This document shows, one piece after another, positions 3,347-60,331 of a stretch of DNA of 64,000 nucleotides. The DNA comes from an uncultured Dehalococcoidia bacterium (GTDB lineage Bacteria; Chloroflexota; Dehalococcoidia; Lucifugimonadales; G958296245): contig OY282458.1 of assembly GCA_958296245.1 (NCBI GenBank), positions 1,190,238 through 1,254,237 of the forward strand, read 5' to 3'. The notes beneath the pieces were generated by a model. The model was given only the letters and a program-made list of their open reading frames with translations, did not search any database and was not told the origin of the DNA. The position numbers and the translations under genes are program-made. Positions within the stretch are counted from its first letter, which is position 1. Every line of letters begins with the position of its first letter.

Positions 3347-3381
3347 GGCGCTGAAGCGTCTCACCGCGCCCACGTAGAGGC

Positions 3382-4437: not shown

Positions 4438-4446
4438 GGCGGAGTC

Positions 4447-31529: not shown

Positions 31530-31560
31530 CGGGCCGCCCCCTGTAGATGGGAGCGGCCCG
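31530..31560 (+). terminator. GC-rich hairpin H4 (likely ssb terminator)
   Basis: CGGGCCGC-cccctgtagatggga-GCGGCCCG, followed by CTTTCT. Confidence 0.45.
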
Positions 31561-31708
31561 CTTTCTAACCCATAGAACCGATAAAGAAGGAGGACGAAAT
31601 GCCCAGGAAGAAGCAGACCAAGCGGATGGAGCCTTTCCCGTCACCCCGGAGGGGCAGGCGCTGCTGGACGCGCTGCGCAGCAACCTGAACCTGCTGGGGG
31701 AGATAGCC

Positions 31709-37506: not shown

Positions 37507-37743
37507 ATGGCGTCTGAAGAAGGATGGGTCGGTATTGCAGACGTGGCTGCCCACCTGAGCGTAGGTAAAGACTCTATATACCGCTGGGTTGACTCGAAAG
37601 ACTTCCCGGCGCACAAGGTAGGGCGGCTCTTACGCTTTCGGCTTTCGGAGGTGGACGATTGGGTGAAGGCAGGAGGTGGCAATAGGCCGAAGACTCATCA
37701 GGGTCGCAGGACGACGCTGGCCCAAAGTCCGAATAACGAGTAG
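37507..37743 (+). CDS. Excisionase/MerR-like HTH DNA-binding protein
   Basis: WVGIADVAAHLSVGKDSIYRWVDSKDFPAHKVGRLLRFRLSEVDDWV is the classic excisionase-family HTH pattern. Confidence 0.8.
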   Translation: MASEEGWVGIADVAAHLSVGKDSIYRWVDSKDFPAHKVGRLLRFRLSEVDDWVKAGGGNRPKTHQGRRTTLAQSPNNE

Positions 37744-37750
37744 AGCATTT

Positions 37751-38764
37751 ATGCCACGTATCTTCGACAACCTAGCGTCTGACACCAGTCTCCTGCCCGC
37801 GTTGCGGGAGACCCTAGACCTATCGTCGCGTGCGGACTTCTGCGTCGGCTATTTCAACCTGAGGGGGTGGGGTGGTCTTGCTCCGCTTGTGGATCGTTGG
37901 CAGCCGGGTGACGGCCCGTGCCGCGTGCTCATCGGGATGCAGCGACTGCCGCACGATGACCTCCGCGATGCCCTGAGTCTGATCGAAAGGCCCTCGGGCA
38001 TAGACAACCAGACGGCGCACCGCCTTAAAGTGCAACTAGCAGAGCAGCTTCGCCAGCAGCTCACCATCGGTGCTCCCACCAACGCCGACGAGAGGACCTT
38101 GCGGCAGTTGGCCTCACAGCTTCGCGCCAAGAAGGTCGTTGTCAAGCTCTTTCTCCGTCACCCGCTCCACGCGAAGCTCTACCTCCTGTTTCGCAACGAT
38201 CCCATCAACCCCATCGTCGGCTTCTTGGGAAGCAGCAACCTTACCTTCGCCGGTCTGTCGGCACAGGGCGAGTTGAACGTGGACGTGCTCGACCAAGACG
38301 CCACGGTGAAGCTCAAGCAATGGTTCGAGGACAGGTGGGACGACCGCTTCTGCGTGGACATCACGGACGAACTGCTCCAGATCATCGAAGAGAGCTGGGC
38401 GCGGGAGGCGCTGATACCTCCCTACCACGTCTACCTGAAGATGGCCTACCACCTTTCCCACGAAGCCCGCGCCGGGCTTGCCGAGTTCAGGGGATTCCCC
38501 GTCCCTGAATCGATGTTCTCTGACGCACGGCTGCGAGAACTCGGCCGGCTATACCTGAAGGACATTGACCGCAACAGCACCATGCTTGTCCGGCAACAGA
38601 AGCAGACCGGAAAGACAGAGACTCAATCCTTCAAGATTCAGAAATCCAAACCCATCATCGACAAAATCGACCGGGTGCTTGCCGAACACTACGGCTTCAC
38701 GGAGGAAGAATTGGACTTCATCATCAACTACGACATCAAATACCGCATGGGGCGGAATGCCTAA
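37751..38764 (+). CDS. Chimeric protein: N-terminal PLD-nuclease domain of a PLD-helicase fused to the C-terminal tail of a DNA methyltransferase/type IIG enzyme
   Basis: The N-terminus MPRIFDNL...RADFCVGYFNLRGW...HPLHAKLYLLF...GFLGSSNLT carries an HxK..GSxN PLD motif. After about aa 247 (nt about 38489) the sequence switches to ...IIDKIDRVLAEHYGFTEEELDFIINYDIKYRMG, a typical methylase/RM C-terminal end. No helicase motifs are present. Confidence 0.6.
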   Translation: MPRIFDNLASDTSLLPALRETLDLSSRADFCVGYFNLRGWGGLAPLVDRWQPGDGPCRVLIGMQRLPHDDLRDALSLIERPSGIDNQTAHRLKVQLAEQLRQQLTIGAPTNADERTLRQLASQLRAKKVVVKLFLRHPLHAKLYLLFRNDPINPIVGFLGSSNLTFAGLSAQGELNVDVLDQDATVKLKQWFEDRWDDRFCVDITDELLQIIEESWAREALIPPYHVYLKMAYHLSHEARAGLAEFRGFPVPESMFSDARLRELGRLYLKDIDRNSTMLVRQQKQTGKTETQSFKIQKSKPIIDKIDRVLAEHYGFTEEELDFIINYDIKYRMGRNA

Positions 38765-38782
38765 TAGCGGAGACTAGTCAAT

Positions 38783-39466
38783 ATGGAACAACTGACTGAC
38801 TACAGCGATAGTAGAAACAAGGGCTTCTGTATCCATTGCGGGAGCGGATTGAGACATGATGATTCCAATCGGGACTACGTTCCGACTCGGGGTCTCTTGA
38901 ACCCTCCTTACCCCGAGAACTTGCCCGTGGTGGATGTGTGCCGACAATGCAACTCCGGCTTCTCGTCGGATGAGGAGTACCTCATCGCCTTTCTCGGCTC
39001 AGTGCTCAGTGGTTCAACGAGACCAGACCCGGTTCGCCTTCCCACGGCCTCCGACTTATTGGCCCACAGCCCCCGATTGGGCAACCGGATTGACCGATCC
39101 CGAACAGTTCAAGGGAACCTGTGGGGCGATGCCGAAGTCTTGTGGGAGCCTGAACTCGACCGCATAGAGCGTGTCCTCGTGAAGAATGCCCGCGGGCACG
39201 TTCTCTACGAACTCGGTGAACCGATGCTTGAGCAGCCATCTCACGTGTCAGTTTGTCCGATTCAGGCGTTGACAACTCACCAAGTTGATCAGTTCGAGAA
39301 CGTTCCGTATGGCTCCGTTTGGCCGGAAGCGGGCAGCAGAATGATGCAGAGGGCGCTCATTGTTCACGGCCCCGGAGGTGCGCAAGAAGTCTACTTTGAT
39401 GGCTGGCAGGATGTTCAAGATGGCGTTTATCGCTACGCCGTTGCTCAGGTATCAGGCGGATCCTAG
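38783..39466 (+). CDS. Hypothetical zinc-ribbon/HNH-like protein
   Basis: CIHCGSGL...DYVPTRGLL...VCRQCNSGFS resembles the Cys4 scaffold of HNH-type Abi proteins, but the catalytic His position reads Asp. Confidence 0.5.
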   Translation: MEQLTDYSDSRNKGFCIHCGSGLRHDDSNRDYVPTRGLLNPPYPENLPVVDVCRQCNSGFSSDEEYLIAFLGSVLSGSTRPDPVRLPTASDLLAHSPRLGNRIDRSRTVQGNLWGDAEVLWEPELDRIERVLVKNARGHVLYELGEPMLEQPSHVSVCPIQALTTHQVDQFENVPYGSVWPEAGSRMMQRALIVHGPGGAQEVYFDGWQDVQDGVYRYAVAQVSGGS

Positions 39467-39511
39467 TAAGGATGGTACTACGCGAATACCTAGCCTGTGA
39501 GGTGGGTTGGG

Positions 39512-40165
39512 ATGAACACTAAGATGACCTATGCTGACAACCTATCCAGTCCTGCAAGCCTTCTCAGCCCTGCTGTGGAGGAGTTGCTCACTCTGGTAGG
39601 ACTAGCTTGCTACAAACCAAAACTTCAGAGCATTGCGGCGCGATTAGCAGAGGATCGCGACGCTGCGGTCCAAGATCTGTTGGTACTCGATAAGACTATC
39701 CCCGGACTTGGGTTACATAATGTCAACGAGCGGACTGCCGGCGGCGGTCTTACTGGTGTCTATAGCATACAGGACCGGCCTATATTCAGGGGAATACAGT
39801 ACGTGGGTATGTATCTCTCCTTAAGCCAGACTGAATGGCTTTCAAGGAAGATCGTCACTGATTCATGCTATCACGTCGAAGGCAGCCTCAAGCGGCGCCT
39901 CAACGTAACAGGCAATCTCTCAGTGGGTATGATACTCAAGAGACGTGGAAGCGTGCTTGACCGCAGTCTCACAGACATACTTTGGCAACTAAACAACGCG
40001 ATCTACAATAATGCCAAACATACCGTTGAAGCGATTGACTTTGACAGTCATATGTTTTCAATTGGGGATGCCATTGCGATATACCTGGTATGTAGGAACC
40101 TCGGCGTTCGTCTTCTGAAAGATCTGGGTATTGCAACAAAGTATGGTGATCCTGTGTTTGACTAG
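39512..40165 (+). CDS. Hypothetical protein (low GC)
   Basis: The ATG at 39512 follows GAGGTGG. I recognise no domain. NNAIYNNAKH is only weakly reminiscent of a HEPN Rx4-6H motif. Confidence 0.55.
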   Translation: MNTKMTYADNLSSPASLLSPAVEELLTLVGLACYKPKLQSIAARLAEDRDAAVQDLLVLDKTIPGLGLHNVNERTAGGGLTGVYSIQDRPIFRGIQYVGMYLSLSQTEWLSRKIVTDSCYHVEGSLKRRLNVTGNLSVGMILKRRGSVLDRSLTDILWQLNNAIYNNAKHTVEAIDFDSHMFSIGDAIAIYLVCRNLGVRLLKDLGIATKYGDPVFD

Positions 40166-40215
40166 GAGTTCCGACGCTAGTCAAAGCAACACACTACGTG
40201 AAGGAGTTACTAATC

Positions 40216-40449
40216 ATGCAAAAGGCACTGCACATCAGGACGACGGTACAACCAGGGGGCAGGGTGGAGGTTGCCAGCCCAGAGTTGGAGGCTGGGCAGT
40301 CGGTCGACGTGGTGGTGACGCGCTCCTCGTCTACCGAACGGCGATCCGTAGTCGACATCCTGGCCGAAGCGCCGGGGCATCGCCTCTTCACGACTGGGAA
40401 GGAAGTCGATGACTACATCAAGGAAGAGAGAGCATCGTGGGATCGCTGA
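40216..40449 (+). CDS. Type II antitoxin (VapB-like, beta-barrel type)
   Basis: GAAGGAG precedes the ATG at 40216. The protein is small and its end overlaps the PIN toxin start. Confidence 0.65.
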   Translation: MQKALHIRTTVQPGGRVEVASPELEAGQSVDVVVTRSSSTERRSVVDILAEAPGHRLFTTGKEVDDYIKEERASWDR

Positions 40450-40892
40450 CCCTACCTGCGCTCGGTCCCGTTTACCTCGACGCCAATGGCTTCATATACA
40501 GCGTGGAGCGTGTTGAGCCGTACCGCACGTTGCTCGAACCCTTGTGGCAGCAAGCACGGGCCGGTGAGTTCGATGTTGCGAGCAGCGACATCACGGTACT
40601 GGAAACGCTTGTCAAGCCGCTGCGGGAGGGCGACGTGGTTGTCGAGATGCTGCTTCGGTCGATGTTCGATGCGCATGAGGTTAGTCTAATCCCGGCCACC
40701 CGGGAACTGTGGGAGGACGCGGCACGCATCCGCGCCGATACGGGGTTGAAGACCCCCGACGCGCTTCACGCCGCGACGGCCCTTAGCATCGGCTGCACGC
40801 TCTTCATCACTAACGACACAGACTTTCGCCGTGTCGAGGGCCTGCCCATCGTCGTCCTCGACGATCTGATCGAGGCGGAAGCGGAGGCATGA
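40437..40892 (+). CDS. vapC: PIN-domain toxin (VapC-like)
   Basis: VYLDANGFIYSVE...VLETLV...DALHAATAL...FITNDTDF carries the conserved PIN acidic residues. Confidence 0.8.
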   Translation: MGSLTLPALGPVYLDANGFIYSVERVEPYRTLLEPLWQQARAGEFDVASSDITVLETLVKPLREGDVVVEMLLRSMFDAHEVSLIPATRELWEDAARIRADTGLKTPDALHAATALSIGCTLFITNDTDFRRVEGLPIVVLDDLIEAEAEA

Positions 40893-41019
40893 CCTGTGCC
40901 AGACGATAGGTTCAAATGAGCACTGCGAGGCATTTCTCGCACAGTACACCCGCAAGAACACTCAGACTGTCACCCAGCGCCTTGAAAGCCTGTGCGGGTT
41001 CCTCAGACAGAAAGGCAAC

Positions 41020-41736
41020 GTGGTGCAGACCATGTTTGGCGGTTCCGTGCGGAAGGGCACTTATGTGACCGGCCTCAGCGACGTCGATGTCCTTTTGGTA
41101 GTGAATGAGTCTTCGCTGGTCAACCAGTCTCCCTCAGATGTCATCGAGTACGTGCGAGACACCATCCAGCGACAGCTTCCGAATAACACAGTAAGCGCGG
41201 GCAAGCTGGCTGTGACAGTCAGATACGCCAAGGGGACCGAGATTCAACTACTGCCTGCCATACGGACAAGGACTGACGGCGTTCGGATTGCCGAGCCCGG
41301 AAGCACCCAGTGGAGCAACGTAGCTCGACCTGATGACTTTGCCGAGAAGCTGAGTGAGGTCAATCAAGCGAGAGGTGGCAGGGTCATACCCGTAATCAAG
41401 CTCGCCAAGGCTATGGCGGACTGCTTCATCAGCCGTCCCAGCAGGAAGATTTCTGGGTATCACATGGAGGCCCTCGCGATAGAGGCATTCAGGGACTATA
41501 CAGGCCCCCTCGACACGAAAGCCATGCTCATTCACCTGCTTGGGTACTCGATCGAGGCTGTGATGCACCCGATCACCGATTCCACGGGACAGTCAAGACA
41601 CGTGGACGAGTACCTTTGCTCAGCAGGGTCTGGGCCTCGCAAGCGGACCTCAACCTACTTCGGACAGATGCGCGGCAAGGTCAGGTCGTGCAGTACCAAG
41701 GCAGAGTTCGACGCCCTGTTCTGCGAGGGGAACTGA
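41020..41736 (+). CDS. SMODS-like nucleotidyltransferase (pol-beta fold); true 5' end unresolved
   Basis: The NTase signature is GGSVRKGTYVTGLSDVDVLLVV. A helical region VIKLAKAMADCF...ISGYHMEALAIEAF follows. The in-frame upstream peptide (EHCEAFLAQYTRKNTQTVTQRLESLCGFLRQKGN) has no ATG/GTG/TTG start. The nearest ATG (40916) is out of frame. Confidence 0.65.
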   Translation: MVQTMFGGSVRKGTYVTGLSDVDVLLVVNESSLVNQSPSDVIEYVRDTIQRQLPNNTVSAGKLAVTVRYAKGTEIQLLPAIRTRTDGVRIAEPGSTQWSNVARPDDFAEKLSEVNQARGGRVIPVIKLAKAMADCFISRPSRKISGYHMEALAIEAFRDYTGPLDTKAMLIHLLGYSIEAVMHPITDSTGQSRHVDEYLCSAGSGPRKRTSTYFGQMRGKVRSCSTKAEFDALFCEGN

Positions 41737-41751
41737 GACAGGCAATCACCG

Positions 41752-42597
41752 ATGAAGGGCAAGTTCATACTGATATCCGGCAGCGCGGGACAATCGTGCC
41801 CTGCGGACAAGCTCGATGTCGCCTCCCGGTTCGTCAGGAGCTTCACCGGAGAGGTGTTGAGTCGGGGAGGGGGAGTCGTGGTCCTTGCCGGAGACCAGGC
41901 AATCACTGACGACGAACACGGCGCGCCCCACATATTCGACTGGCTGGCACTGCGAGAGGTCGAGCGCTACGTCAATAGTACGACGGAAAGCTCTCGGTCA
42001 TACGCACGCATTGTCATGTCCGACGAAGCGCCGGAGTTGAAGATAGACGACGCCGGTCTGCTGTTGCTGAGAAACCTGGAGCAGAGAAACGCTGTGGAGC
42101 GCTACCACATACGGCGGGAGGTGTTTACTGGTGGGGAATATCGAAAGACGATGGTCGACAGGGCCGACGCCATGCTCGCAATCGGCGGGGGGAAGGGCAC
42201 TTATGCCGTAGGAACGGAGATGGCTGCGCGAGGCAAGCCCGTGTTGCCGCTCGACCTGCAACTTGGGTCCAGGGCCAACGATGGAGACGGGGCCGTTGCC
42301 TTGCACAGGGAGATGACGGCGGATCCTGGACGCTTCTTTCCGAGCACTCACCAAGGCGTGATAGACAGGGCCGGGTTGGTCTCCTTAGACCGGGGAATCA
42401 GCGACGTGGTAGCCGTGGCGCGAGTGTCGGCCGAGATGCTTGCGGGAGAGCTGGAAGTGCTTCAACTGCCGGAACAAGGCTCGACCGCCAAGGGGCGAAT
42501 GGCCGCCGCGTGGCACTTCGTTAGGGCACTCCCCTTCGTCGCATCCGCTATCAAGATAATCGAGTGGGTGAGGGGTCTGGTCCCCTTCATGCTGTGA
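41752..42597 (+). CDS. SLOG/LOG-like Rossmann-fold protein with a hydrophobic C-terminal tail
   Basis: KFILISGSAG is the Rossmann start. GGGKGTYAVGTEMAARGKPVLPLD is LOG-like. The C-terminal tail is FVRALPFVASAIKIIEWVRGLVPFML. Confidence 0.6.
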   Translation: MKGKFILISGSAGQSCPADKLDVASRFVRSFTGEVLSRGGGVVVLAGDQAITDDEHGAPHIFDWLALREVERYVNSTTESSRSYARIVMSDEAPELKIDDAGLLLLRNLEQRNAVERYHIRREVFTGGEYRKTMVDRADAMLAIGGGKGTYAVGTEMAARGKPVLPLDLQLGSRANDGDGAVALHREMTADPGRFFPSTHQGVIDRAGLVSLDRGISDVVAVARVSAEMLAGELEVLQLPEQGSTAKGRMAAAWHFVRALPFVASAIKIIEWVRGLVPFML

Positions 42598-42620
42598 GCT
42601 GACGAAATGGATCGGAGGCA

Positions 42621-43212
42621 TTGAGCCTGGAAGCTCAGCCGAAGATGAAGTCGAAGGGCAACCTCAGCCTGCTTGAAGAGCCGCTGACCGCCCTCTTCTG
42701 TTCCCAGCGCTGCCCCGGCGACCTCATTCTCAAGACCTACGATCTCGCCAGGGCTATGCGAGAAGCAAGGGTGCCGGTCGTTGGCGGCTTTCAGACACCG
42801 ATGGAGAAGGAGTGCCTTCGCTTGCTGCTCCGCGGCAGCCAGCCAGTGGTCGTCTGCCCGGCCCGCGGCATCGACAACATGCGCATCCCCCGCGACTGGC
42901 ACACCCCTCTTGCCGAGGATCGCCTGCTGGTCCTGTCGCCCTTCCCGGCCACGGCCAGACGCCCGACGGCAGAGCTCTCGGTCCAACGCAACAACCCTGG
43001 TGGCGTCGCTGGCGAGCCGGGTTTTCATCGCCCACGCCGCGCCCTGCAGCAAGACTGAGGCGTTTGCCCTCCAGCTCGCAGCCTCTGGCAAGCCTTTGCT
43101 GACTCTCGATAGCCCTTCCAATACAAACATAGTAGCGATGGGAGCGAAAACTGTAGAGACAGAGCAGGCGGATGGGGCTAACATTAGACTGGTAGACTTC
43201 GATGAGGCCTAG
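42621..43212 (+). pseudogene. Short DprA/Smf-like (SLOG superfamily) protein interrupted by a frameshift
   Basis: Frame 1 reads ...VPVVGGFQTPMEKECLRLLLRGSQPVVVCPARGI...LLVLSPF...ELSVQRN. From about 42990-42996 the family-like sequence continues in another frame (TLVASLASRVFIAHAAPCSKTEAFALQLAASGKPLLTL...) to the stop at 43212. Confidence 0.6.
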
Positions 43213-43409: not shown

Positions 43410-44192
43410 CTAGGCTTCGGCCCAAGGCCTCAGCACTTCAGAAGCGATGAGGTGGTCAAACCGCTCAGCAATCGCGGCCGCCTGGGGACCGCGAACCCTC
43501 AGCCCTAGCTCCAGATTTGATTCCAAACCATGGAATGTGAAGTTCGCCGAGGTGACAAGTGCGTCGAGACGATCCACGACCAGGCACTTGGCATGCAGCT
43601 TGGTGAACGGATGATCTGCCGGAGGTCTCCAAGTGTAGACTTTCGGTTTCTTTACGAAGACATCCCAAAGTTTGAGTAGATTGTCCAGATTCGTTGTCTC
43701 GTCTTCGTCGCTGTGGAGAACGATGGAGAGGGCCGCATGTCGCCTTACCGATTCAACCAGCAGTTCGACCACGCGCTCCATTGTCGTTCCAGGTTCTACG
43801 GTCAATGCATACCCTACAAGGAGCACCTCTCCGGCTTCACGCACGCTTTCGAGCATCTCCTCCAGGACGACGGATGTTGAACGAACTAGGGGGCCAGACG
43901 CCGCTGGGCCGGTCCAGGCGATTTCAATCTCGGGACGTGCGAGTCTCTCTACGAACCGGAGCCGATTCGCGACACGTAGCGCGGTGGCCACAGCTCTCTC
44001 GTCAATTCCTATCTGCTGGAGGGTCGCAGCGATCCTACCCGCATGGTCATCACTTACTCCCCGGAGACGAGCGAATCCGAAGGAGCTCGTCGATAGACTT
44101 ACACGACCAGCTTCGAGTCCTTCCGCCAGCGCATCAACCGCACTGGGAGGTAGCACTGCGACAAGCTCTGCAAGATCATCTGTCAGCGACAA
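43410..44192 (-). CDS. drmC: DISARM DrmC-like PLD-domain nuclease
   Basis: The C-terminal HKD-type motif is FTKLHAKCLVVDRLDALVTSANFT. It is the last gene of the drmD-A-B-C operon and overlaps the drmB stop. Confidence 0.75.
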   Translation of the reverse strand: MSLTDDLAELVAVLPPSAVDALAEGLEAGRVSLSTSSFGFARLRGVSDDHAGRIAATLQQIGIDERAVATALRVANRLRFVERLARPEIEIAWTGPAASGPLVRSTSVVLEEMLESVREAGEVLLVGYALTVEPGTTMERVVELLVESVRRHAALSIVLHSDEDETTNLDNLLKLWDVFVKKPKVYTWRPPADHPFTKLHAKCLVVDRLDALVTSANFTFHGLESNLELGLRVRGPQAAAIAERFDHLIASEVLRPWAEA

Positions 44193-45942
44193 ATGCGGTA
44201 TCCGTGGAACGCAGCGTCCCGGCCAAGACGGCTCTATCGAGAAAGTTGTTGCCTACCTCACAGGAAGTTTCGGATTCGAGAAGACAAGCGTGACACGCCG
44301 CTCCGTTTAGCTGAGTTCCCGTCGAACTCACGACCCGGTCGGCACAGAGCGGATCATTCGCGCACAGCTTCGAAGCCTTTAGGGCTCTATCCAACATCGG
44401 CCCCAGACGCTCGGAGCGTGACATTTCGACGAGTCCGCCGAGAGAACCTTCCGAGTCTGGACTTGCCGTGTAAATCAAAATGCCTGCCATAGCATCGGCC
44501 CCCGTACCGCAATATATGCGCTCTCGTAGCGAGGAGGACGCGTATCCGCACTCGAGTCCCAGTTGACGAACCAGGAGATGCGCAAGTGCGTGCAGAAGTA
44601 GATAACGTGCCGGCCTCGTCTCCGGTTCCTTCATATCCCGTGCCGCATACCATTCACGCTGCGCCGCAGAGTGTCGCTTGTACAAGTCATCAACTGCCGG
44701 GCGTTCCTCCCATTGCCTAACGACGTCCTCGTCGAGCCGAAGGAAGACGCCCTCGCCCCTCTGGTCAATGCCCGGAAGCCAACTCTGGCGCTTGGTGGCA
44801 AGCGGTGCCAGGCCCGCATCGATCGCGGCTACTTCGCCAAGATCGCCAATGTCGGGGATCGGGTCGATTCGCGTGAACCCTCGCAGTGCACGTACCTCAC
44901 GAAGTCGAACCACTTGCGTCACGTTGGCAACGAAAGGCTTGACCTCATCCGGAACCACCGTAGGTCTAGTCTGGAACTCGGCATCGGGATCGATGTGGTT
45001 CCTGTCGCGAGTGAATGAAGCCCACTCTTCACGCCGCAAGTCGGCGACACCGATGTCACCCGCCCGCCTTCGTTGTATGCCTGCCCACACCCGGTCCAGA
45101 GGGAATTCCTCTAGGGCTGGGGCATTGGCGAACTTCAGAAACATCTGCAGATCCTCAAGTGAGTTCACTTTCGCGAGCTCATCAACGTACTCGCCGATGG
45201 CGAGTTGTACAGGATCGGACCAAGGCGGTACCGAGATCGCGGATTCTACTACGGGAAAGTACGCGTTGGAGGCGCCTCGGAGTATCACGTGCATCTCTCC
45301 GTCACATGACTCGAAAGACTTGATATCCAACCAAGGCCGGAACCCGCTGCATTTCGGAAGACGCTTGCGAGCCATCGCGCCGGTTGCTTGGCCCAGATTT
45401 CTGGCACGATCATGGACCGGACATCGCACCCAAAGGTCCGTAATCGCGCCCGTGCGCCCGGAATCCCAAAGGTGTAGTTCCGCGTCACAGTCCAATTCGT
45501 CACCGTGCACGTAGTAGTGCCAAGGAAAGTCGTCCAGATGACCGCGACCACAGGCGACCATGAACCTAGCCGGGTACACCGGATGGTCGCGCCCTCCGCC
45601 GTGCGCCGCCGTGCACACATATTCCGGATTGCGCCGCTCCTGAAACTTGAACGCCGTATGAGGGGCAAGACGATTACATCGGGGACACACCATGAATCGA
45701 GGAAAGACACGAGCTGGCAGTCCCCCATTCCTTCGTTGGTGATGGTAGTAGGGGGGACGATAGAAGAAGCCGACTCCCAGTTTCCTAGCCAAGCGGGGTT
45801 CGTCTACCCTGCGGGCATTCGACGTGTCCCAGTCTTCGATCCCCGTCACTACCATCGACAGCGTCGGCAAATCGATTAGAGCACCCGGTCCGAACTGGGA
45901 CACGATCTGGCTCGGACGCATCTTTCCGGCGCGTACGGCCAT
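44176..45942 (-). CDS. drmB: DISARM DrmB-like DUF1998 protein
   Basis: The N-terminus is RPSQIVSQFGPGALIDLP and a CPRCNRL motif is present. The C-terminal DUF1998 Cys cluster is LCANDPLCAD...GAACHACLLESETSCEVGNNFLDR. Confidence 0.8.
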   Translation of the reverse strand: MAVRAGKMRPSQIVSQFGPGALIDLPTLSMVVTGIEDWDTSNARRVDEPRLARKLGVGFFYRPPYYHHQRRNGGLPARVFPRFMVCPRCNRLAPHTAFKFQERRNPEYVCTAAHGGGRDHPVYPARFMVACGRGHLDDFPWHYYVHGDELDCDAELHLWDSGRTGAITDLWVRCPVHDRARNLGQATGAMARKRLPKCSGFRPWLDIKSFESCDGEMHVILRGASNAYFPVVESAISVPPWSDPVQLAIGEYVDELAKVNSLEDLQMFLKFANAPALEEFPLDRVWAGIQRRRAGDIGVADLRREEWASFTRDRNHIDPDAEFQTRPTVVPDEVKPFVANVTQVVRLREVRALRGFTRIDPIPDIGDLGEVAAIDAGLAPLATKRQSWLPGIDQRGEGVFLRLDEDVVRQWEERPAVDDLYKRHSAAQREWYAARDMKEPETRPARYLLLHALAHLLVRQLGLECGYASSSLRERIYCGTGADAMAGILIYTASPDSEGSLGGLVEMSRSERLGPMLDRALKASKLCANDPLCADRVVSSTGTQLNGAACHACLLESETSCEVGNNFLDRAVLAGTLRSTDTAFVADR

Positions 45943-45943
45943 G

Positions 45944-48900
45944 TCACTCCTCCCGATCTTGGAGCAGGATTACGTCGACTTCCTCCTCCACCTCACGTAG
46001 GGAGGTGGCAACCGGCCAAGATCCTCTACCTTCAGTCTGCTCCATAGGCTTGATGAGGATTGCGGGGTCCTCTGTACTTTCGCTTTCCTTCCGACGTCCC
46101 CTCGTTCCGAAGGACGAGTAGATTAGCCCTTCGTCCGACTGAGCCCACCCGTGCCACTCGCTCGTCAGGTTGTCTAGCAGGAGCTTCGTCTCGGCATCTA
46201 CTCCCTGACTACCGGTTACCTTGTACGCGCGGTCACGGATGAATTCAACGATCTCGCTGACGCGGCCTAACGTCCAGTCGAAGCGAGACGCTGCCGCAGC
46301 GGGAAGCGCCATCCCGGGAACATCCTGACGAACAAACGACGTCAGAACACCACGTAGTGCACGATCGCGCGCGCGCTCCGAAAACGGAGTCACGCTTGTG
46401 GCCTCGACATGGCGATAGAACGTGTCGTGATAGTGTGCAAAGCGTTCGTAGTGTGAGATATCCCGAGGACGAACCCAGTTGTAGACCTCGACTATGAGAC
46501 CTGGATGCCTTCTTCCTACTCGGCTGGTCGCTTGGATGTATTCGGCGCTCGTCTTCGGCTGAGCGCTGACGACCATTAATCCCAAACGATCAATGTCGAC
46601 TCCGACCGAGATCATGTTCGACGCCAAGAGAACGTCGATTGGATAGGATCCCGCCGTCCGCATCTTGAAAGTCCTATCCAACGCATCGAGTGTGTCGGAA
46701 ATCTCGGAACTTCCACGACGACTGGTCAGCTCCCTGTCTTTCTCATACAGCAGGCGGTTTGGTCCGAACCCACGGTTCTGGAGCACGCGAAGGCGAGCCG
46801 GCACGTCATCGTCAAGGAGTCTAAGGGCACCACCGAGTTCGCGAAGAGAGTTGAAGTAACCGACCAGTGTCATATAGGCGTCCGCGGCGGCCACCTCTTC
46901 ACTATCGGGATCGGCGGCAACGGCCGTATCGAACTCGAACTGCGCTCTACTAAGCAGCGCACCGTATGTTCTCACCAGTGTCGTCTTGATCGATTTGCCC
47001 GGCCCGAACAAGCCCACATACAGACGCCCCGGCTTGTCCGTCTCTTCTACGGCAAAGAATGAATCGGAGGCGTCGATTCCGAGAGGAGGGAAGATATCCG
47101 CGTCGCGATCGAAGAGTGACCGAATTTGGGTCGTAGCACGTCTGACTGTAGCGGTCGAAGCTACGATCTTCGGCCGGACGGGTCCATCGTTGGAAGCTCT
47201 GGTAGATAGCCCGTCGATCACCGACTCGTAGATGCCAACGAGACTTCCCATTGGCCCGGCAATCAGATGGAGTTCGTCTTGAATGATGAGGTCCGGAGGC
47301 GCGAGAGGCGCTCTCAGGTCGCGAACTACGGCGGCCGGCGACCCGACACTTTCGCGGTGCCTAGCCTGATGAGACTCTCCCTCTCCTAGGTAACCGTGGC
47401 GCGGGCAATGGCGGTCCACTCGGCCGAACAGCGCTCGTATGCGACCGTTCCAGGCCATCTGCGCGAATTTGTCGACTGTTGCCAAGACCAGCGACGGGGG
47501 ATGACGATATATCTCCTGATCGACGACGAGCGCCGGAACTCCAAGCTCGGAAGTGGCAGCCCCGAAGGGGCAGTCAACGGCCAAACATTTGATTAGTGTG
47601 CGTTCGAGTTCGTCGTCCGTCACATAGTTCGAGGGAGCGATGTCGCTTCCGCACCATGGACAATAGAGAACCTGGTAGGGTGATCTACCGTAGACGCGCC
47701 GTTCCTTTTTCAGTTGGTCGAGAGCGTCCTTTGAGTCCTCATAGGAATTGGGCGTAACGGACTGCCCGACCCAGAGCCCGATGGTAAAATGCTTCTCCCC
47801 CCACTTCCCAACGTCCTCCTGCCGGAGCAACTCGCTGGCGCATACTAGGGTTAGAGCACGTTGGAACTGCTGGATCGTGAGCAGTCTAAGGGTGTACCGC
47901 ATAAGCACCGCCGTGCCCGCACTCCAATCGTACCTCTCGTCGACTTGTAGCCGCCTCAAGGCAAATGTGAATGCCGTGAGACCCAAATACGCCTCGGTCT
48001 TGCCGCCCGCGGTCGGATACCAGAGTAGGTCGGCAACGTCCCTGTCTGGATGTGAGGGATGAACAAGTGCCGTCAGAGATTGAAGGATGAAGCCGATTTG
48101 GAACGGACGCCACAATGTCGGTATCTGATCGTCCGTCGGGACGGTGTCACCCCGGCGTCGATGCAGAACGCGCACGGTGGTCCGCCTCTGCATTGCCATC
48201 GCGCGATTCGCGAAGCGGAAGGCTTCAAATGCGTGCGGATCCGTCAAGCACTCCAATCCCAGGCGCATTCGCTCAAGGCTCTCAACTTGAGCCGCGATGT
48301 GATCGCGAGCCACCGCATCGTCGGGAGGAGATATACCGTCGACTTCGGCCTTTCGTTTATCTATCCATTCCTCGTACGCTTCAAGTAACGGAAGAAGTAG
48401 AGCTCGCACCTGTTCGGGGGCCTTCGCCCGGCCCAGTCGGTCCATCGACAGCGGCGGTACATTCGTTGGGCCGCGCACGGCATGTACTTCGCGACTCGGC
48501 ACGATTGTCGTGTAGACTCTGGTGGCCCGAGTCTCATCCTCACTATCCGTATTCCAGCCGACGGCTACTCCGTGTCCGACGGCGAATTCTTGTCGACGGC
48601 GGTAGATGAGGTCGGCAGACGCCATATCCGGATCGGTATCCGGAGTACTACGAGGCAATCTCCTCGACAGGAAGATCGGACCGTTTCCGAATACGGACAG
48701 TTCGGGCTGGTACATCCAGTCTTCGTCGGCCGACCGCCTGTCCTGGGACGCGGTACGGGTGTTCGTGAGAAACACCGATACCACCCTTCGAACTGCGAGG
48801 CTTTCGACGACCCATTCAATCGACGCGCCAGGCGAAATCTGTTCATGTCCGGTTCGATTGGAGAGTGGCAGCAGTATGGTTGCGTCAAATGGAGTTCGAA

Positions 48901-49366
48901 CCCAACGGTACTCCTTGTGCCTGGTCGTTGCAGTTGTCTCTGGGTCGGCGTCCGGGTCGATGTCGGTGGCTTCCTCCGGATTCAATTCGGGGCTGTCGAC
49001 CATCTCAACCCGTTCATACTCTCCCCAACCGGCACGGACGCTGACGGCGTCGCAGTCGGCACTGACGATAAACGATAGCCCGATGGACGAAGGCGCCAGT
49101 TGCTGCACCCCTCGGGGACCGGCTTCATAGTCTTCGTCGTCTTCGACGGTCGAGGTCGCACTTTCGTCTTCCGAAGGCGAAAGCCTCGTGCCCTGCGGAG
49201 CCAGCATTCCTATTAGGTAGCGGGTTGACGGTGATTGCGCCAGCTCCTCGTCTGGCGCTTCGGGTCCGAGAAGGTCCGTTTTCAGAGCGTTGAGCAACCG
49301 CTCCCTTACGGTTTCTCCCTGCGCCTCGAAGTAGGCGGAAGCTTGCCCGACTGGTTGCGAATTCAT
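45944..49366 (-). CDS. drmA: DISARM DrmA-like SF2 helicase
   Basis: 1140 aa. Motif I is YPTAGGKTEAYLGL and motif II is IIQDELHLI. The C-terminal helicase motif is SNMISVGVDIDRLG...QATSRVGR. Confidence 0.8.
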   Translation of the reverse strand: MNSQPVGQASAYFEAQGETVRERLLNALKTDLLGPEAPDEELAQSPSTRYLIGMLAPQGTRLSPSEDESATSTVEDDEDYEAGPRGVQQLAPSSIGLSFIVSADCDAVSVRAGWGEYERVEMVDSPELNPEEATDIDPDADPETTATTRHKEYRWVRTPFDATILLPLSNRTGHEQISPGASIEWVVESLAVRRVVSVFLTNTRTASQDRRSADEDWMYQPELSVFGNGPIFLSRRLPRSTPDTDPDMASADLIYRRRQEFAVGHGVAVGWNTDSEDETRATRVYTTIVPSREVHAVRGPTNVPPLSMDRLGRAKAPEQVRALLLPLLEAYEEWIDKRKAEVDGISPPDDAVARDHIAAQVESLERMRLGLECLTDPHAFEAFRFANRAMAMQRRTTVRVLHRRRGDTVPTDDQIPTLWRPFQIGFILQSLTALVHPSHPDRDVADLLWYPTAGGKTEAYLGLTAFTFALRRLQVDERYDWSAGTAVLMRYTLRLLTIQQFQRALTLVCASELLRQEDVGKWGEKHFTIGLWVGQSVTPNSYEDSKDALDQLKKERRVYGRSPYQVLYCPWCGSDIAPSNYVTDDELERTLIKCLAVDCPFGAATSELGVPALVVDQEIYRHPPSLVLATVDKFAQMAWNGRIRALFGRVDRHCPRHGYLGEGESHQARHRESVGSPAAVVRDLRAPLAPPDLIIQDELHLIAGPMGSLVGIYESVIDGLSTRASNDGPVRPKIVASTATVRRATTQIRSLFDRDADIFPPLGIDASDSFFAVEETDKPGRLYVGLFGPGKSIKTTLVRTYGALLSRAQFEFDTAVAADPDSEEVAAADAYMTLVGYFNSLRELGGALRLLDDDVPARLRVLQNRGFGPNRLLYEKDRELTSRRGSSEISDTLDALDRTFKMRTAGSYPIDVLLASNMISVGVDIDRLGLMVVSAQPKTSAEYIQATSRVGRRHPGLIVEVYNWVRPRDISHYERFAHYHDTFYRHVEATSVTPFSERARDRALRGVLTSFVRQDVPGMALPAAAASRFDWTLGRVSEIVEFIRDRAYKVTGSQGVDAETKLLLDNLTSEWHGWAQSDEGLIYSSFGTRGRRKESESTEDPAILIKPMEQTEGRGSWPVATSLREVEEEVDVILLQDREE

Positions 49367-52300
49367 GACAACACGTCCTCGTTCCTCGATTGAGGGACAA
49401 CCTCAACGCGCGCGGCGGCCAGTAACCGATACTCCGCCTGAGCCATCTGGGCGGCGGCGAGGTCGCGCAAAGACCGAGCCTTATCTTGTCCAAGCGATTC
49501 GAGCTCCCCCTGGGCACGTTCCAGATTGGCCTCCCATAGTGGGATGGCCTGACGCTGCAATGGTTGGTCCGAAGCCTTGAGCCGCTCCAAGGTGCCCGCA
49601 CACGACCGAATCCGATCCCTGGCCGCTCTGGCACGATTGTCGTACAGACGTTGGATACGATCCCGCTCTATTTCAATGCGGCTCTGCGTCTCCTCACGGA
49701 GATTGGCAATTTGCTCGTCGACTATTGCACGGACTTCCTCGTGGGCGCGTTCATAGGAAGCGTCCAAGGTAGCGAAGTCGACGCATCCCTCGGATTCCTC
49801 TTGTTGGAATTTGCGGGAGTGCTCAAGCAGGTCTGCGCCTAGGACGGGATCGACCAGTCCACGGTCGTCTACGAATGAGGAGTGCATGAATTCCCGAGGT
49901 TTCAGGCCTCCCACCTTGACCAGCCAGTTAAACTGCCAGCCCGGCCGTAATCGGTCCACGGTCCCGTCCCGGAGTTGTCTTATCGCGCTGGCACCCTCGT
50001 GGCGCTCCTCGGTCACACGCCTAACTATCGCATCGATGATCGGATGCCCGAAGCCGAAGTATTCGACAAGTTCGCTATCGACGAACGTCTGAGGATCGAA
50101 GCTAACGCGCCGCTTCTCCTCGCCGTCGACGAGTTCTTTGTGTTCCTCCGTGAACGGCGGATGGAAATGAATGCGCCGTTCGGCCGTGTCCCGACGGGTC
50201 TCGACCCAAGTGTTCACCGATCGCAGAAGCGCCATCATCAGCCGCTCAAAGTCCGCTTGACTAACGGATTGCCTTTCCTGGAGTGCCGTCTGAGCAATCT
50301 CTGCTGCGAAGCTCTTGGTGTCGAGGATAAGGTCCTTTAGCTGGGTCTCGGCTATTCGAGCCTGGCGTACTCGCTCTTCGAGTCTCTGAGCTACGCGCTC
50401 CAACTCCCTATCCCGCTCATCCGCAGTCGCCCGCAGGGCCGTCCTGATATCGGCCTCTGCGTCCCCGAGAATCGGATCAAGGCCTCCTATCGACTCCTCG
50501 AAAAGCCGGATACGCTGCTCGAGGACATCAAGGATTCGCCCCTCGATGGTTCCCCGAACGTGAAAGTTGAAGATGGTCACGGGATGTTCCTGGCCGATTC
50601 GGTCTACGCGCCCGATTCGCTGTTCCACGCGCATCGGGTTCCAAGGCAGATCGTAGTTGACGAGGACGTGCGCAAACTGGAAGTTGCGACCCTCCCCGCC
50701 CGCTTCGGTTGATACCAAGATCTGCGGCCCAGCCCCGACTCGAAATGCTTCGATGGCGTTGTCCTTCTGAAGGGGGTCTAATTGCCCGTGGAACCGGTGG
50801 GCGGACCATCCCTGCGCCGCGCTGAGTTCTACGAGCATCTCCTGCGTCTCGCGGAATTCGGTGAACACGATCACCTTGCCGTCCGCGTCCTCCTCGAATA
50901 GCTCCCGCAGCTTTTCGGCAAACGTCCGTGCCTTCGAGTCGATATCGATTCGTCTCAAAAGTTCGATGACGCGGTCGATCCTGAATATTTCATGGGCCGA
51001 CGCCTCTGGGAGTTCCCTGGTAATCTCGGAAGCCTCCACATCATCGGACAGGCCGTCTTCGGCCGCTTCCGCCGAGAGGGTTCCGGTTATTTTGCCCTGT
51101 AACAGTCGATCACGACGACTGTCCAGGGACTTCAGCAACGCACGAGAGGAACTGGCTGCCAATTTCTGCCAGATAACCATAAGGAAGCCCACCGCGTTCC
51201 TCTGGGTTCGCTCCGCCTCCCTGTATCCGTCGGAGATGATCGAATCCATCTCGGACTGTACCGCCCGTTCATCCTCCGTAATGTGTACGTCCCATCGGAA
51301 CGCCCTTCGAGGTTGGAATCCACCGATGACCGCCCGACGATTCCGTATTAGCACCTCGCTCAGCCTATGCCGTTCCCTAAGCCTCCCAATCAACTCGCCG
51401 ATTTCCAAATCTTCCAGCTCGCTTGATTGTTCGTCGAGGAGAGCTCCCGCCCGCTCGGTCAGTTCGCCTACGGCGCCATGGCGGGTGAGCTCTTCCACGA
51501 GTCTGTTCAGTCCGCCTAGACCCTGCACATGAGAGACGAAGTCGTCTTCTGAGGCGAAGAGAACCGGGTTAAGCATCTCGACCAGGGAGAATAGTTCGTG
51601 GCGGTGGAGTTGCAGAGGCGTTGCCGTCAAGAACAGCACGCCCCGTCTGGCAAACTCGGGACGGGAGGTTAGAGCCGACACTAGCCGATAAAGGTTCGTC
51701 ATAGTGACGCTACTCCCCGACCTTTGTCGACGAGCGTGGTGTGCCTCGTCGACGATGATCAAGTCCCAGTCGACGGCAGCGATCTCCTCACGACGATCAG
51801 AACTCCAAGAGGCCCACGACTGAGAAGTGATGACCGAGTCGTGGTCGGTCCATGGATTCCTGGTCCCCTTTGATTTGAGGTATTGAAGTGTATTCCTGTC
51901 GAAAATCGCGAAAGTTTCGTTGAATTTTGTTTTCAACTCGAACTGCCACTGACGAACCAAGCCGGAGGGCACTAGGATCAATACTCGCCTGGCGAGACCT
52001 CGCGCTCGTAGCTCCTTTACGATCATGGCAGCCTCGATCGTCTTGCCTAGGCCGACCTCGTCACTCAGAAGGAAGCGATACGGATAAGACGAGGTGACCC
52101 TATGCACGACCGACACCTGGTGCGGCTTGAGGTCGACTCGAGCATGCGATAGGGAGACGAGCGAATCGTGTAGGTGTCGCGTCCATAGGTCAGCCGCGAC
52201 CGAGCGCAGATTGAATTGCGCGGCGGTCCCCAGCTGATTGGCTCGAATTCGTTCGATGGGATCATCCAGGGTCGCCGGACGAAGGGCCATCTCTGCTACA

Positions 52301-60322: not shown

Positions 60323-60331
60323 GGCGCGAGG

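What the first reader, a model, noticed from the sequence alone, without database searches (positions are those of the whole stretch)
40893..43212. SMODS-type nucleotidyltransferase followed by two different SLOG-fold proteins: candidate nucleotide-signalling conflict module
Gene 1 has the pol-beta NTase signature (GGSVRKGT-x9-SDVDV) and the helical partner region seen in SMODS/CD-NTase-like enzymes. Gene 2 starts 15 nt downstream. It has LOG/SLOG hallmarks (KFILISGSAG and GGGKGTYAVGTE...GKPVLPLD) plus a hydrophobic or amphipathic C-terminal tail. Gene 3 is a short DprA/Smf-like SLOG protein.

SMODS-SLOG associations were predicted computationally by Burroughs et al. (2015) as second-messenger sensor/effector pairs. 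An NTase with two distinct SLOG proteins and no recognisable nuclease, TIR, patatin or pore effector is not among the experimentally characterised CBASS, Pycsar or Thoeris layouts that I know of.

Caveats: gene 1 lacks an in-frame canonical start, because the ATG at 40916 is out of frame by 1 nt. Its third catalytic acidic residue is also unclear (TEIQLLPA). Gene 3 is frameshifted at about 42990-42996. This copy may therefore be inactive.
Basis: partly seen in the sequence, partly recalled or inferred. Interest (0 to 1): 0.7.

Follow-up and report, generated by a model that had tools for sequence, protein, structure and literature searches.

The report
Decayed CBASS pair beside unrelated DprA-like gene
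The three genes are real, but only the first two form a signalling defence pair (a CBASS-type cyclase plus a small SLOG sensor/effector); the third, DprA-like gene belongs to a neighbouring helicase-methylase defence system, and this copy carries frameshifts in genes 1 and 3.

Summary
Gene 1 (40896-41736) is a CBASS oligonucleotide cyclase: NCBIfam NF041117 above its cut-off, and 43% identical to the solved type IV CBASS CdnD. Gene 2 (41752-42597) is a Cap17-like (TPALS) SLOG sensor domain followed by a conserved 40-residue cationic amphipathic tail instead of a PNP or TIR domain. Gene 3 (42621-43212) is a minimal DprA-fold protein. Both frameshifts are confirmed against relatives: an extra A at 40914-40916 and an extra C at 42995-42997.

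The triad interpretation does not hold. In 47 related Chloroflexota loci, the presence of gene 3 is independent of gene 2 (odds ratio 0.9). It tracks an upstream HKD-SNF2 helicase / type IIG methylase (odds ratio 14). In seven contexts that lack the cyclase, spanning at least four phyla, the same DprA-like protein closes a helicase-methylase operon that carries other cargo. Cyclase and SLOG co-diverge (rho 0.75). Cyclase and DprA-like barely do (rho 0.36).

The best reading is a two-gene, type I-like CBASS cassette and a VapBC-like pair sitting in a cargo slot of a helicase-methylase-DprA-like system. In this window that system has itself lost its helicase and methylase. The result is a new variant of a known kind, of moderate interest.

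The parts
37676..38764 (+). In-frame deletion chimera. It is the remnant of the framework system: the N-terminal HKD/PLD part of an HKD-SNF2 helicase fused to the last ~95 residues of a type IIG (MmeI/Eco57I-like) methylase.
   Evidence: Residues 26-272 are 64% identical to residues 1-244 of the L063 helicase. Residues 270-362 match the C-terminus of the L063 and L056 methylases. Pfam PLDc_2 and PADLOC PDLC03628 C-terminus.
38783..39466 (+). Cargo gene, weakly HNH-like (Cys-rich N-terminus). It is also present in the same slot in L013, L020 and L025.
   Evidence: Pfam HNH_5, E=0.007, below the cut-off. tblastn 82-86% in three loci.
39497..40165 (+). Cargo gene of unknown family (222 aa).
   Evidence: No Pfam, PADLOC or NCBIfam match. 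Homologues lie in the same slot in L019, L021 and L045.
40198..40449 (+). Antitoxin-like small protein. It overlaps the start of the PIN gene.
   Evidence: It is adjacent to and co-diverges with the PIN gene (rho 0.62). No family match.
40437..40892 (+). PIN-domain (VapC-like) toxin. Its stop codon lies 3 nt before the cyclase start.
   Evidence: Pfam PIN, E=3e-18. It lies upstream of the cyclase in about half of 47 loci (24 with an intact PIN). In L069 it precedes the DprA-like gene with no cyclase.
40896..41736 (+). Gene 1: CBASS oligonucleotide cyclase of the CdnD / type IV family, 279 aa when repaired. It is frameshifted by an extra A at 40914-40916. It lacks the N-terminal MGGSGG extension of type IV cyclases.
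41752..42597 (+). Gene 2: intact 281-aa TPALS/Cap17-like SLOG sensor (residues 1-238) plus a conserved cationic amphipathic C-terminal tail (residues 240-281). It is the putative CBASS effector.
42621..43212 (+). Gene 3: minimal DprA-fold protein (196 aa when repaired) with four invariant cysteines. It is frameshifted by an extra C at 42995-42997. It is the terminal gene of the helicase-methylase framework, not of the CBASS pair.
43410..52581 (-). Convergent, intact DISARM-like operon (SNF2 DrmD/BrxH-like, DrmA, DrmB, DrmC). This is context and not part of the module.
   Evidence: PADLOC: DrmC 2e-47, DrmB 7e-87, DrmA 4e-282, DrmD/BrxHI 4e-105.

Best explanation
The region is a mosaic of separate defence modules packed into one co-directional gene array on a mobile defence island of a Dehalococcoidia (Chloroflexota) genome.

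(1) Genes 1 and 2 are a two-gene, type I-like CBASS.
- The cyclase belongs to the CdnD family otherwise known from type IV CBASS. It lacks the N-terminal glycine-rich acceptor for deazaguanylation, and it has no Cap9/Cap10 genes beside it.
- Inferred: on infection it makes a cyclic oligonucleotide.
- Inferred by analogy with Cap17 and ThsA: the signal is read by the TPALS SLOG domain of gene 2.
- Inferred and untested: ligand-driven oligomerisation then deploys the conserved cationic amphipathic C-terminal tail, most likely against the membrane. The tail occupies the position held by the PNP or TIR killing domains in paralogues.

(2) The antitoxin-like gene and the PIN gene upstream are an independent VapBC-type cassette.

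(3) Gene 3 is the conserved last gene of an 'HKD-SNF2 helicase + type IIG methylase + [variable cargo] + DprA-like' system.
- The CBASS pair, the TA pair and the two upstream ORFs are cargo sitting between the methylase and the DprA-like gene.
- Inferred by fold resemblance to DprA and ShosA: the DprA-like protein probably binds ssDNA and/or RecA rather than a second messenger.

(4) In this window the arrangement is decaying.
- The helicase and methylase are removed by an in-frame deletion.
- The cyclase is frameshifted at codon 7 and the DprA-like gene at codon ~125.
- The SLOG gene, the TA pair and the neighbouring DISARM operon remain intact.
For: Cyclase identity:
- PADLOC E=1e-91 and NCBIfam above its cut-off.
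- 43% identity to the Rhizobiales CdnD (PDB 9NTN), with the catalytic DxD and EIQLLPA motifs aligned.

Sensor identity of gene 2:
- PF18178, E=1e-35.
- SLOG fold, with ThsA the best PDB match.
- The GSA, FDW, GGGKG and DGxG motifs are shared with the ~500-aa PNP and ~385-aa TIR paralogues.

The short form is a real family:
- 485 clusters of about 280 aa.
- The tail is conserved within the family and replaced by analogous cationic helices in relatives at 36-57% identity.

The pair stands alone:
- Cyclase + SLOG with neither the PIN gene nor the DprA-like gene occurs in L017, L031, L034 and L041, in unrelated surroundings.
- Cyclase and SLOG co-diverge: rho 0.75, Mantel p=0.001.

Gene 3 is separate:
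- Its presence is independent of the SLOG gene (odds ratio 0.92, p=1).
- Its presence tracks the helicase/methylase (odds ratio 14, p=1e-4).
- Cyclase to DprA-like rho is 0.36; SLOG to DprA-like rho is 0.26, not significant.
- DprA-like proteins at 47-64% identity, with the same four invariant Cys, end helicase-methylase operons without any NTase in L056, L060, L061, L062, L063, L069 and L070. The named taxa are Nitrospiraceae, Pirellulaceae and Acidobacteria; homologues are also listed from Roseiflexus.
- L069 runs methylase, HNH, antitoxin, PIN, DprA-like, with no cyclase.

Decay.

Authentic type IV operons on plasmids carry QueC, a TGT-like gene, a cyclase beginning MGGSGG and a 2TM effector. 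None of these features is present here.
Against: - In 19-22 loci the cyclase is followed directly by the DprA-like gene (11-20 nt gap) with no SLOG gene. Those cyclases are intact and under purifying selection (median dN/dS 0.19 at dS 0.45). A cyclase without the SLOG partner is therefore apparently still useful, which leaves room for the DprA-like or PIN proteins as outputs.
- The association statistics are not corrected for phylogeny, and all 47 cyclase-anchored loci are Chloroflexota.
- The effector activity of gene 2 is inferred. The tail is only borderline hydrophobic (Kyte-Doolittle 19-residue maximum 1.4-1.6) and is modelled with low confidence.
- No experiment exists for this effector class.
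- Whether the two frameshifts are real mutations or assembly errors cannot be decided from the sequence. Window and L002 differ by only 2 indels in 8.9 kb.
Confidence: 0.65

Rival explanations
1. One NTase makes a signal that is read by two different SLOG proteins (the TPALS-type and the DprA-type), and the three genes form a single three-gene signalling module.
For: - All three genes are co-directional with 15- and 23-nt gaps and no terminator-like site between them.
- About 9 loci carry all three in the same order.
- The DprA domain belongs to the SLOG superfamily, and SMODS-SLOG links were predicted by Burroughs et al. 2015. This is from my own knowledge; the paper could not be read here.
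Against: - The presence of gene 3 is independent of gene 2 (odds ratio 0.92).
- Co-divergence of gene 3 with the cyclase and the SLOG gene is weak.
- The same DprA-like family ends helicase-methylase operons without an NTase in several phyla, with unrelated cargo such as DUF1016, DUF6978-DUF1828-DUF5131, a ParE/Phd pair or a Schlafen-like ATPase.
- Its structural neighbours are the ssDNA-binding proteins DprA and ShosA.
Confidence: 0.1
2. The functional unit is antitoxin, PIN, cyclase and DprA-like, the commonest layout. In this reading the cyclase works without the SLOG protein: its output is the PIN toxin or the DprA-like protein, and gene 2 is an optional add-on effector.
For: - This layout is found in about 19 of the 47 loci.
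- The PIN stop and the cyclase start are 3 nt apart.
- Cyclases in these loci are intact, with dN/dS 0.19.
- PIN presence correlates with DprA-like presence (odds ratio 8.7).
Against: - PIN and cyclase co-diverge poorly (rho 0.21).
- The antitoxin-PIN pair occurs next to the DprA-like gene with no cyclase in L069.
- Cyclase + SLOG occurs with no PIN gene in L017, L031, L034 and L041.
- Neither the PIN protein nor the DprA-like protein has a recognised cyclic-nucleotide sensor domain.
- Several genomes with this layout also carry a cyclase + SLOG locus elsewhere, for example CATOSD01 (L006 with L038 and L041) and CBDCYU01 (L013 with L009).
- Other cyclases of the family sit alone or next to a trypsin-like protease.
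Confidence: 0.15
3. The frameshifts are assembly errors, and the window in fact carries intact, active copies of genes 1 and 3.
For: - Both changes are single-base insertions in short homopolymers (AA to AAA, CC to CCC).
- Close relatives come from long-read metagenome assemblies.
Against: - Against the 98.8%-identical L002, the window shows only two indel events in 8,914 nt, so indel errors are not common here.
- The helicase-methylase deletion shows independent decay of the same array.
- Frameshifted or truncated copies are frequent in relatives: L033, L043, L046, L047/L058, L048 and L051.
Confidence: 0.3

Closest known systems
Type IV CBASS cyclase CdnD (Rhizobiales; PDB 9NTN/9NTO; Wassarman et al. 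2025, bioRxiv 10.1101/2025.04.06.647259)
   Same: - Same cyclase family: 43% identity over 250 residues.
- NCBIfam NF041117 is passed.
- The GGS...SDVD and EIQLLPA catalytic motifs are shared.
   Different: - No ~30-residue N-terminal extension with the M(G/S)G(G/S)GG deazaguanylation site.
- No Cap9 (QueC), Cap10 (TGT-like) or Cap11 (OGG) genes in the array.
- The effector is a SLOG protein, not the 2TM protein seen in the Bacillus and Pseudanabaena type IV operons.
Cap17, the CBASS ATP nucleosidase effector (Rousset et al. 2023, bioRxiv 10.1101/2023.01.24.525353)
   Same: [quoted passage not shown]
- The conserved pocket motifs are shared.
   Different: Gene 2 has no PNP nucleosidase domain. 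It ends in a 40-residue amphipathic tail, and identity to Cap17-type proteins is only about 30%.
ThsA SLOG domain of type I Thoeris
   Same: Best structural match for gene 2 (8wc0, 7uxs, 8bto). It is a SLOG domain that senses a nucleotide signal and drives effector assembly.
   Different: ThsA carries a SIR2 NADase and reads a TIR-made cADPR isomer. Here the partner is a CD-NTase and no enzymatic effector domain is present.
DprA, and the DprA-like antitoxin ShosA of ShosTA (NAR 2026, PMC12961424); PADLOC PsyrA
   Same: - Gene 3 has the DprA Rossmann-type fold (TM about 0.72 to 3uqz, 3maj, 4ljk and 8zva).
- It matches the PADLOC PsyrA profile at E=1e-11.
- Like ShosA, it is a DprA-like protein in a defence setting.
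   Different: - It is only 196 aa, with no SAM or winged-helix domains.
- It has four invariant cysteines not typical of DprA.
- It scores far below the dprA equivalog cut-off (25 against 191 bits).
- It has no PRTase or RecQ-like toxin partner. Its partners are an HKD-SNF2 helicase and a type IIG methylase.
DISARM class 1 / type IIG restriction-modification
   Same: The framework that owns gene 3 combines an SNF2 helicase (weak DrmD-like matches) with an MmeI/Eco57I-type methylase (PADLOC PDLC03628, with weaker DrmMI matches).
   Different: - The helicase has an N-terminal HKD/PLD domain.
- DrmA and DrmB are not part of the framework: they are absent from L063 and L070.
- A DprA-like terminal gene and a variable cargo slot are not described for DISARM, to my knowledge.

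Membership tests
CBASS (CD-NTase plus Cap effector) | A cGAS/DncV-like nucleotidyltransferase with the GS...DxD...acidic catalytic motif | tested here: met
   NCBIfam NF041117 216.6 bits against cut-off 200. PADLOC cyclase E=1e-91. D62/D64 align to the catalytic D94/D96 of the Rhizobiales CdnD, and the EIQLLPA motif is shared.
CBASS (CD-NTase plus Cap effector) | An adjacent effector that carries a cyclic-nucleotide sensor domain | tested here: met
   Gene 2 starts 15 nt downstream. PF18178, E=1e-35. SLOG fold. Co-divergence with the cyclase, rho 0.75.
CBASS (CD-NTase plus Cap effector) | The effector carries a recognisable cell-killing domain (phospholipase, nuclease, TM, TIR, PNP or protease) | tested here: inconclusive
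   No second domain in Pfam, PADLOC or NCBIfam. Only a 40-residue cationic amphipathic tail with borderline hydrophobicity and low pLDDT.
CBASS (CD-NTase plus Cap effector) | Intact reading frames, that is, a functional copy in this genome | tested here: not met
   The cyclase has an extra A at 40914-40916 and reaches a stop after 7 codons. Gene 2 is intact.
CBASS (CD-NTase plus Cap effector) | Synthesis of a cyclic oligonucleotide, and phage defence | not testable with these tools
   This needs expression, LC-MS and plaque assays.
Type IV CBASS | Cap9 (QueC-like) and Cap10 (TGT-like) ancillary genes in the operon | tested here: not met
   None of the ORFs between 37676 and 43212 matches QueC or TGT. 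True type IV operons on plasmids show QueC and a TGT-like gene directly upstream of the cyclase.
Type IV CBASS | The cyclase has an N-terminal extension beginning M(G/S)G(G/S)GG | tested here: not met
   The window cyclase begins MPDDRFNEHC, 3 nt after the PIN stop, and aligns from residue ~44 of the Rhizobiales CdnD.
Cap17 (ATP nucleosidase effector) | A C-terminal PNP_UDP_1 nucleosidase domain | tested here: not met
   Gene 2 is 281 aa and matches only positions 5-235 of the 506-position PADLOC PN-superfamily effector profile. There is no PF01048 match.
DprA (DNA-processing protein A) | The DprA Rossmann-type domain | tested here: met
   Pfam PF02481 31.6 bits against cut-off 29.6. Foldseek E=2.5e-10 to 3uqz, TM 0.72.
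DprA (DNA-processing protein A) | Full-length architecture and the equivalog score of bona fide DprA | tested here: not met
   TIGR00732 25.3 bits against cut-off 191. Only 196 aa, a single domain, and the GIDxxAH motif is replaced by GGF(H/Q)TPMEKEC.
   Gene 3 against gene 2: odds ratio 0.92, p=1. Gene 3 against helicase/methylase: odds ratio 14, p=1e-4. Gene 3 occurs without an NTase in seven helicase-methylase contexts.
ShosTA / PsyrTA (DprA-like antitoxin systems) | An adjacent PRTase or RecQ-like toxin gene | tested here: not met
   No such neighbour in the window or in any of the related loci examined.

The most novel reading that the evidence does not exclude
Two things are not excluded.

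(a) The ~280-aa 'TPALS SLOG + cationic amphipathic tail' proteins may be a new, minimal class of CBASS effector. They would kill through ligand-driven assembly of a short membrane-active peptide. Their partner would be a lineage of the type IV cyclase family that has dispensed with deazaguanylation priming.

(b) The 'HKD-SNF2 helicase, type IIG methylase, variable cargo, Cys4 DprA-like' arrangement may be an undescribed, phylum-spanning defence framework whose interior acts as an exchange slot for other defence cassettes. The persistence of cyclases under purifying selection without any cis effector would then hint at trans-acting effectors or a second role for the cyclase.
Probability: 0.35. 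Interest if true: 0.6.

Novelty: new variant of a known kind. Interest (0 to 1): 0.4.

Why it matters
- If the SLOG-plus-tail protein is a self-sufficient effector, it would be one of the smallest CBASS effectors. It would show that a bare sensor domain with a 40-residue peptide can replace enzymatic killing domains.
- The cyclase shows that the type IV family can exist without Cap9/Cap10 priming. That bears on how these enzymes are activated, a question the type IV CBASS study (bioRxiv 10.1101/2025.04.06.647259) itself leaves open.
- Re-assigning the DprA-like gene matters practically. Tight co-linearity inside defence islands can make unrelated modules look like one operon, and here it would have produced a false 'dual-SLOG' system.
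- The helicase-methylase-DprA-like framework with swappable cargo is a lead for how defence cassettes are exchanged.
- For this particular genome the locus is probably inactive.

Tried and rejected
- Sequence searches of the PDB with genes 2 and 3 found nothing by phmmer. A profile of the gene 3 family reached DprA only at E=0.23, so fold comparison was needed.
- Burroughs et al. 2015 and Millman et al. 2020 are not held in the library. What I say about them rests on memory and is marked as such.
- The single metagenome scan with gene 3 returned only 8 loci. The genome scan found only Chloroflexota. Taxonomic breadth for the cyclase + SLOG pair is therefore not established beyond that phylum.
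- Plasmid searches found only Cap17-type (PNP) relatives of gene 2, and true type IV operons for gene 1.
- I considered and rejected the following:
  - An MNT/KNTase-type antitoxin NTase, because it passes the CBASS cyclase model.
  - Gene 2 as a LOG-type hydrolase, because the Glu of the PGGxGTxxE motif is not conserved in the family.
  - A SLATT 2TM domain in the tail, because there is no Pfam match and only 40 residues.
  - Programmed frameshifting, because the relatives lack the inserted bases.
  - Gene 3 as part of the convergent DISARM operon, because DrmA and DrmB are absent from L063 and L070.
- The promoter and terminator scan was uninformative, with counts at shuffle level.
Full report
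**What is there.**
- On the + strand, eight ORFs run head to tail from 37676 to 43212 with gaps of 3-32 nt or small overlaps. No terminator-like site lies between them.
- The last three are the finding.
- Gene 1, read from GTG 40896, matches the PADLOC CBASS cyclase profile PDLC00790 (E=1e-91) and Pfam SMODS.
- Gene 1 also passes the curated NCBIfam model NF041117 'CBASS oligonucleotide cyclase' (216.6 bits, cut-off 200).
- Gene 2 (41752-42597, 281 aa, intact) matches Pfam PF18178 'Cap17-like N-terminal' (the TPALS SLOG family) over residues 2-215 (E=1e-35). It matches only the first half of PADLOC's PNP- and TIR-type CBASS effector profiles.
- Gene 3 (42621-43212) passes Pfam DNA_processg_A narrowly and matches PADLOC PsyrA.

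**The frameshifts.**
- Five relatives read (A/G)TG CCA GAC GAT AGG TTC AAT GAG CAC. The window has TTC AAA TGA, one extra A at 40914-40916, which stops the frame after seven codons.
- The 98.8%-identical contig L002 has an intact 196-aa gene 3. The window has CCC where L002 has CC, at 42995-42997.
- Over 8,914 aligned bases the window and L002 differ by 103 substitutions and only two indel events. Indel noise is therefore low, and the frameshifts may well be real. Reads are needed to settle this.

**Gene 1 in detail.**
- Its closest solved relative is CdnD of a Rhizobiales type IV CBASS (PDB 9NTN/9NTO; E=2e-53, 43% identity).
- Window D62/D64 align to the metal-binding D94/D96 that are required for defence.
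- Type IV cyclases carry an N-terminal extension beginning M(G/S)G(G/S)GG. Cap9 (QueC-like) modifies it with a 7-deazaguanine, and Cap10 (TGT-like) binds it.
- The window enzyme and its 47 relatives start about 30 residues later, directly after the PIN stop codon. No QueC or TGT genes are present in the array.
- True type IV operons on Bacillus and Pseudanabaena plasmids show QueC, a TGT-like gene, an MGGSGG cyclase and a ~200-aa 2TM protein.
- Gene 1 is therefore a member of the type IV cyclase family sitting in a type I-like (no ancillary gene) layout.

**Gene 2 in detail.**
- The protein search found 485 clusters, and the 120 best listed are almost all 275-285 aa. A search of 1.84 billion representatives found only 257 clusters.
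- The nearest of those are other ~250-297-aa proteins. Next come ~500-aa (Cap17/PNP-type) and ~385-aa (TIR-type) architectures.
- The SLOG motifs (GSA, FDW, GGGKG, DGxG) are shared across all of these.
- The AlphaFold model is confident for residues 1-238. Its best PDB matches are the signal-sensing SLOG of ThsA, the TRPM2 MHR domain and LOG enzymes.
- The LOG catalytic Glu is not conserved, so a sensor role is more likely than hydrolysis.
- Residues 240-281 are conserved within the family (RRLAAAWQ..KALP.IASAIKIIEWVKGLLPF). They carry net positive charge, are amphipathic, and are only borderline hydrophobic.
- Relatives at 36-57% identity carry different but analogous tails.
- The tail sits where paralogues carry their killing domain. 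This is the basis for proposing it as the effector element. That step is inference.

**Gene 3 in detail.**
- The model of the 97%-identical intact homologue P0121 (pLDDT 90.7) superposes on the DprA proteins of S. pneumoniae, R. palustris and H. pylori, and on ShosA (TM about 0.72, E down to 2.5e-10). LOG and MoCo-carrier SLOGs match much less well.
- ShosA is a defence-associated DprA-like protein that binds ssDNA and RecA (PMC12961424).
- The family differs from DprA in being single-domain and in having four invariant cysteines (C27, C31, C65, C79).

**Do the three genes belong together?**
- A genome scan with the cyclase gave 47 loci, all from Dehalococcoidia, Caldilineaceae or SAR202 MAGs.
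- Approximate layouts downstream of the cyclase are: DprA-like only 22, SLOG + DprA-like 9, SLOG only 5, neither 12.
- DprA-like presence is independent of SLOG presence (odds ratio 0.92, p=1).
- DprA-like presence is strongly tied to an upstream HKD-SNF2 helicase / type IIG methylase on the same strand (odds ratio 14, p=1e-4) and to the PIN gene.
- Pairwise identities correlate well for cyclase with SLOG (rho 0.75) and for PIN with antitoxin (0.62). They correlate poorly for cyclase with DprA-like (0.36), SLOG with DprA-like (0.26) and cyclase with PIN (0.21).
- These numbers indicate three separately inherited modules.
- Searches anchored on the DprA-like gene clinch the point.
  - In L063 and L070 (Acidobacteria), the order is helicase, methylase, (DUF1016), DprA-like, with overlapping stop and start codons in L063.
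  - In L061 (Nitrospiraceae) and L062 (Pirellulaceae), the cargo between methylase and DprA-like is (ParE/Phd), DUF6978, DUF1828, DUF5131.
  - In L056 the DprA-like start overlaps the methylase stop.
  - In L060 the cargo is a Schlafen/AlbA_2 ATPase.
  - In L069 the order is methylase, HNH, antitoxin, PIN, DprA-like.
  - None of these contains an NTase.
- The window's own ORF 37676-38764 is the scar of this framework. It joins the first ~245 residues of the helicase in frame to the last ~95 residues of the methylase.

**Residual tension.**
- Cyclases in loci without the SLOG gene are intact and under purifying selection (dN/dS 0.19). The same holds for lone cyclases.
- They may use effectors encoded elsewhere, since some of these genomes also hold cyclase + SLOG loci.
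- A subset sits next to a ~740-aa trypsin-like protease.
- I cannot exclude that the DprA-like or PIN proteins respond to the cyclase in those layouts, and I give that rival 0.15.

**Context.**
- The array converges on an intact DISARM-like operon (43410-52581, - strand).
- An Hma-like methylase/ATPase block follows it (53449-61576).
- Conjugation genes lie upstream (relaxase, coupling protein and VirB4/TraG-like ATPase at 14608-21273).
- The whole region therefore looks like a defence island on an integrative conjugative element.

**Verdict.**
There is a nucleotide-signalling pair with an uncharacterised effector type. The second 'SLOG' gene belongs to a different system, and this copy is likely dead.
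- This is a new variant of a known kind, with interest 0.4.

Noticed in passing
window 37676-38764: This ORF is an in-frame fusion of the N-terminal HKD/PLD part of an HKD-SNF2 helicase (64% identical to L063 residues 1-244) with the last ~95 residues of a type IIG methylase. About 2,000 codons of helicase and methylase have been deleted. The same scar seems present in L007 and L012.
   Followed up: yes
L056, L060, L061, L062, L063, L069, L070 (and the window array 37676-43212): A recurring arrangement 'HKD-SNF2 helicase, MmeI/Eco57I-type methylase (PADLOC PDLC03628), variable cargo, DprA-like' in at least four phyla. The interior holds different cassettes: TA pairs, HNH, DUF1016, DUF6978-DUF1828-DUF5131, a Schlafen-like ATPase, or a CBASS pair. 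It looks like an exchange slot. I know of no description of it.
   Followed up: partly
window 42621-43212 and alignment A3/A4: The DprA-like family has four invariant cysteines (C27, C31, C65, C79) and a GGF(H/Q)TPMEKEC motif in place of DprA's GIDxxAH. A possible metal site. The spatial clustering of the cysteines could not be checked, because model coordinates are not returned.
   Followed up: partly
window 43410-52581 (- strand): An intact DISARM-like operon (SNF2 DrmD/BrxH-like, DrmA, DrmB, DrmC), 98-100% identical to L002 and L004.
   Followed up: partly
window 53449-61576 (+ strand): A further defence block: DUF2806, an HmaB-like adenine methylase (54477-57662), an SMC/LmuB/Ppl-like ATPase (57659-60322), and a protein with weak matches to PADLOC pAgo and Argonaute-associated (Aga) profiles (60332-61576).
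   Followed up: no
window 14608-21273 (- strand) and 31547-32134: A Replic_Relax relaxase, a TrwB-like coupling protein, a TraG/VirB4-like ATPase and a RadC-like JAB protein. The defence island appears to sit on an integrative conjugative element.
   Followed up: no
L035, L037, L044, L052 (about 1700-5950): Cyclases of the same family that lack both SLOG and DprA-like neighbours are preceded by a ~740-aa trypsin-like protease. In L035, L037 and L052 a PD-Lambda-3_A-like small protein also intervenes; L044 instead has a second protease copy. This may be an alternative effector set.
   Followed up: partly
L003 8468-11083; also L042 and L031: A second, distant SMODS gene (37-43% identity to gene 1). 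In L003 it is followed by an OGG-like glycosylase (Cap11-like) a few kb downstream of the cassette. This is a fragment of a type IV-like CBASS.
   Followed up: no
L033, L043, L046, L047/L058, L048, L051: Frameshifted or truncated copies of the cyclase, SLOG or DprA-like genes are common among relatives, which suggests rapid turnover of these cassettes.
   Followed up: partly
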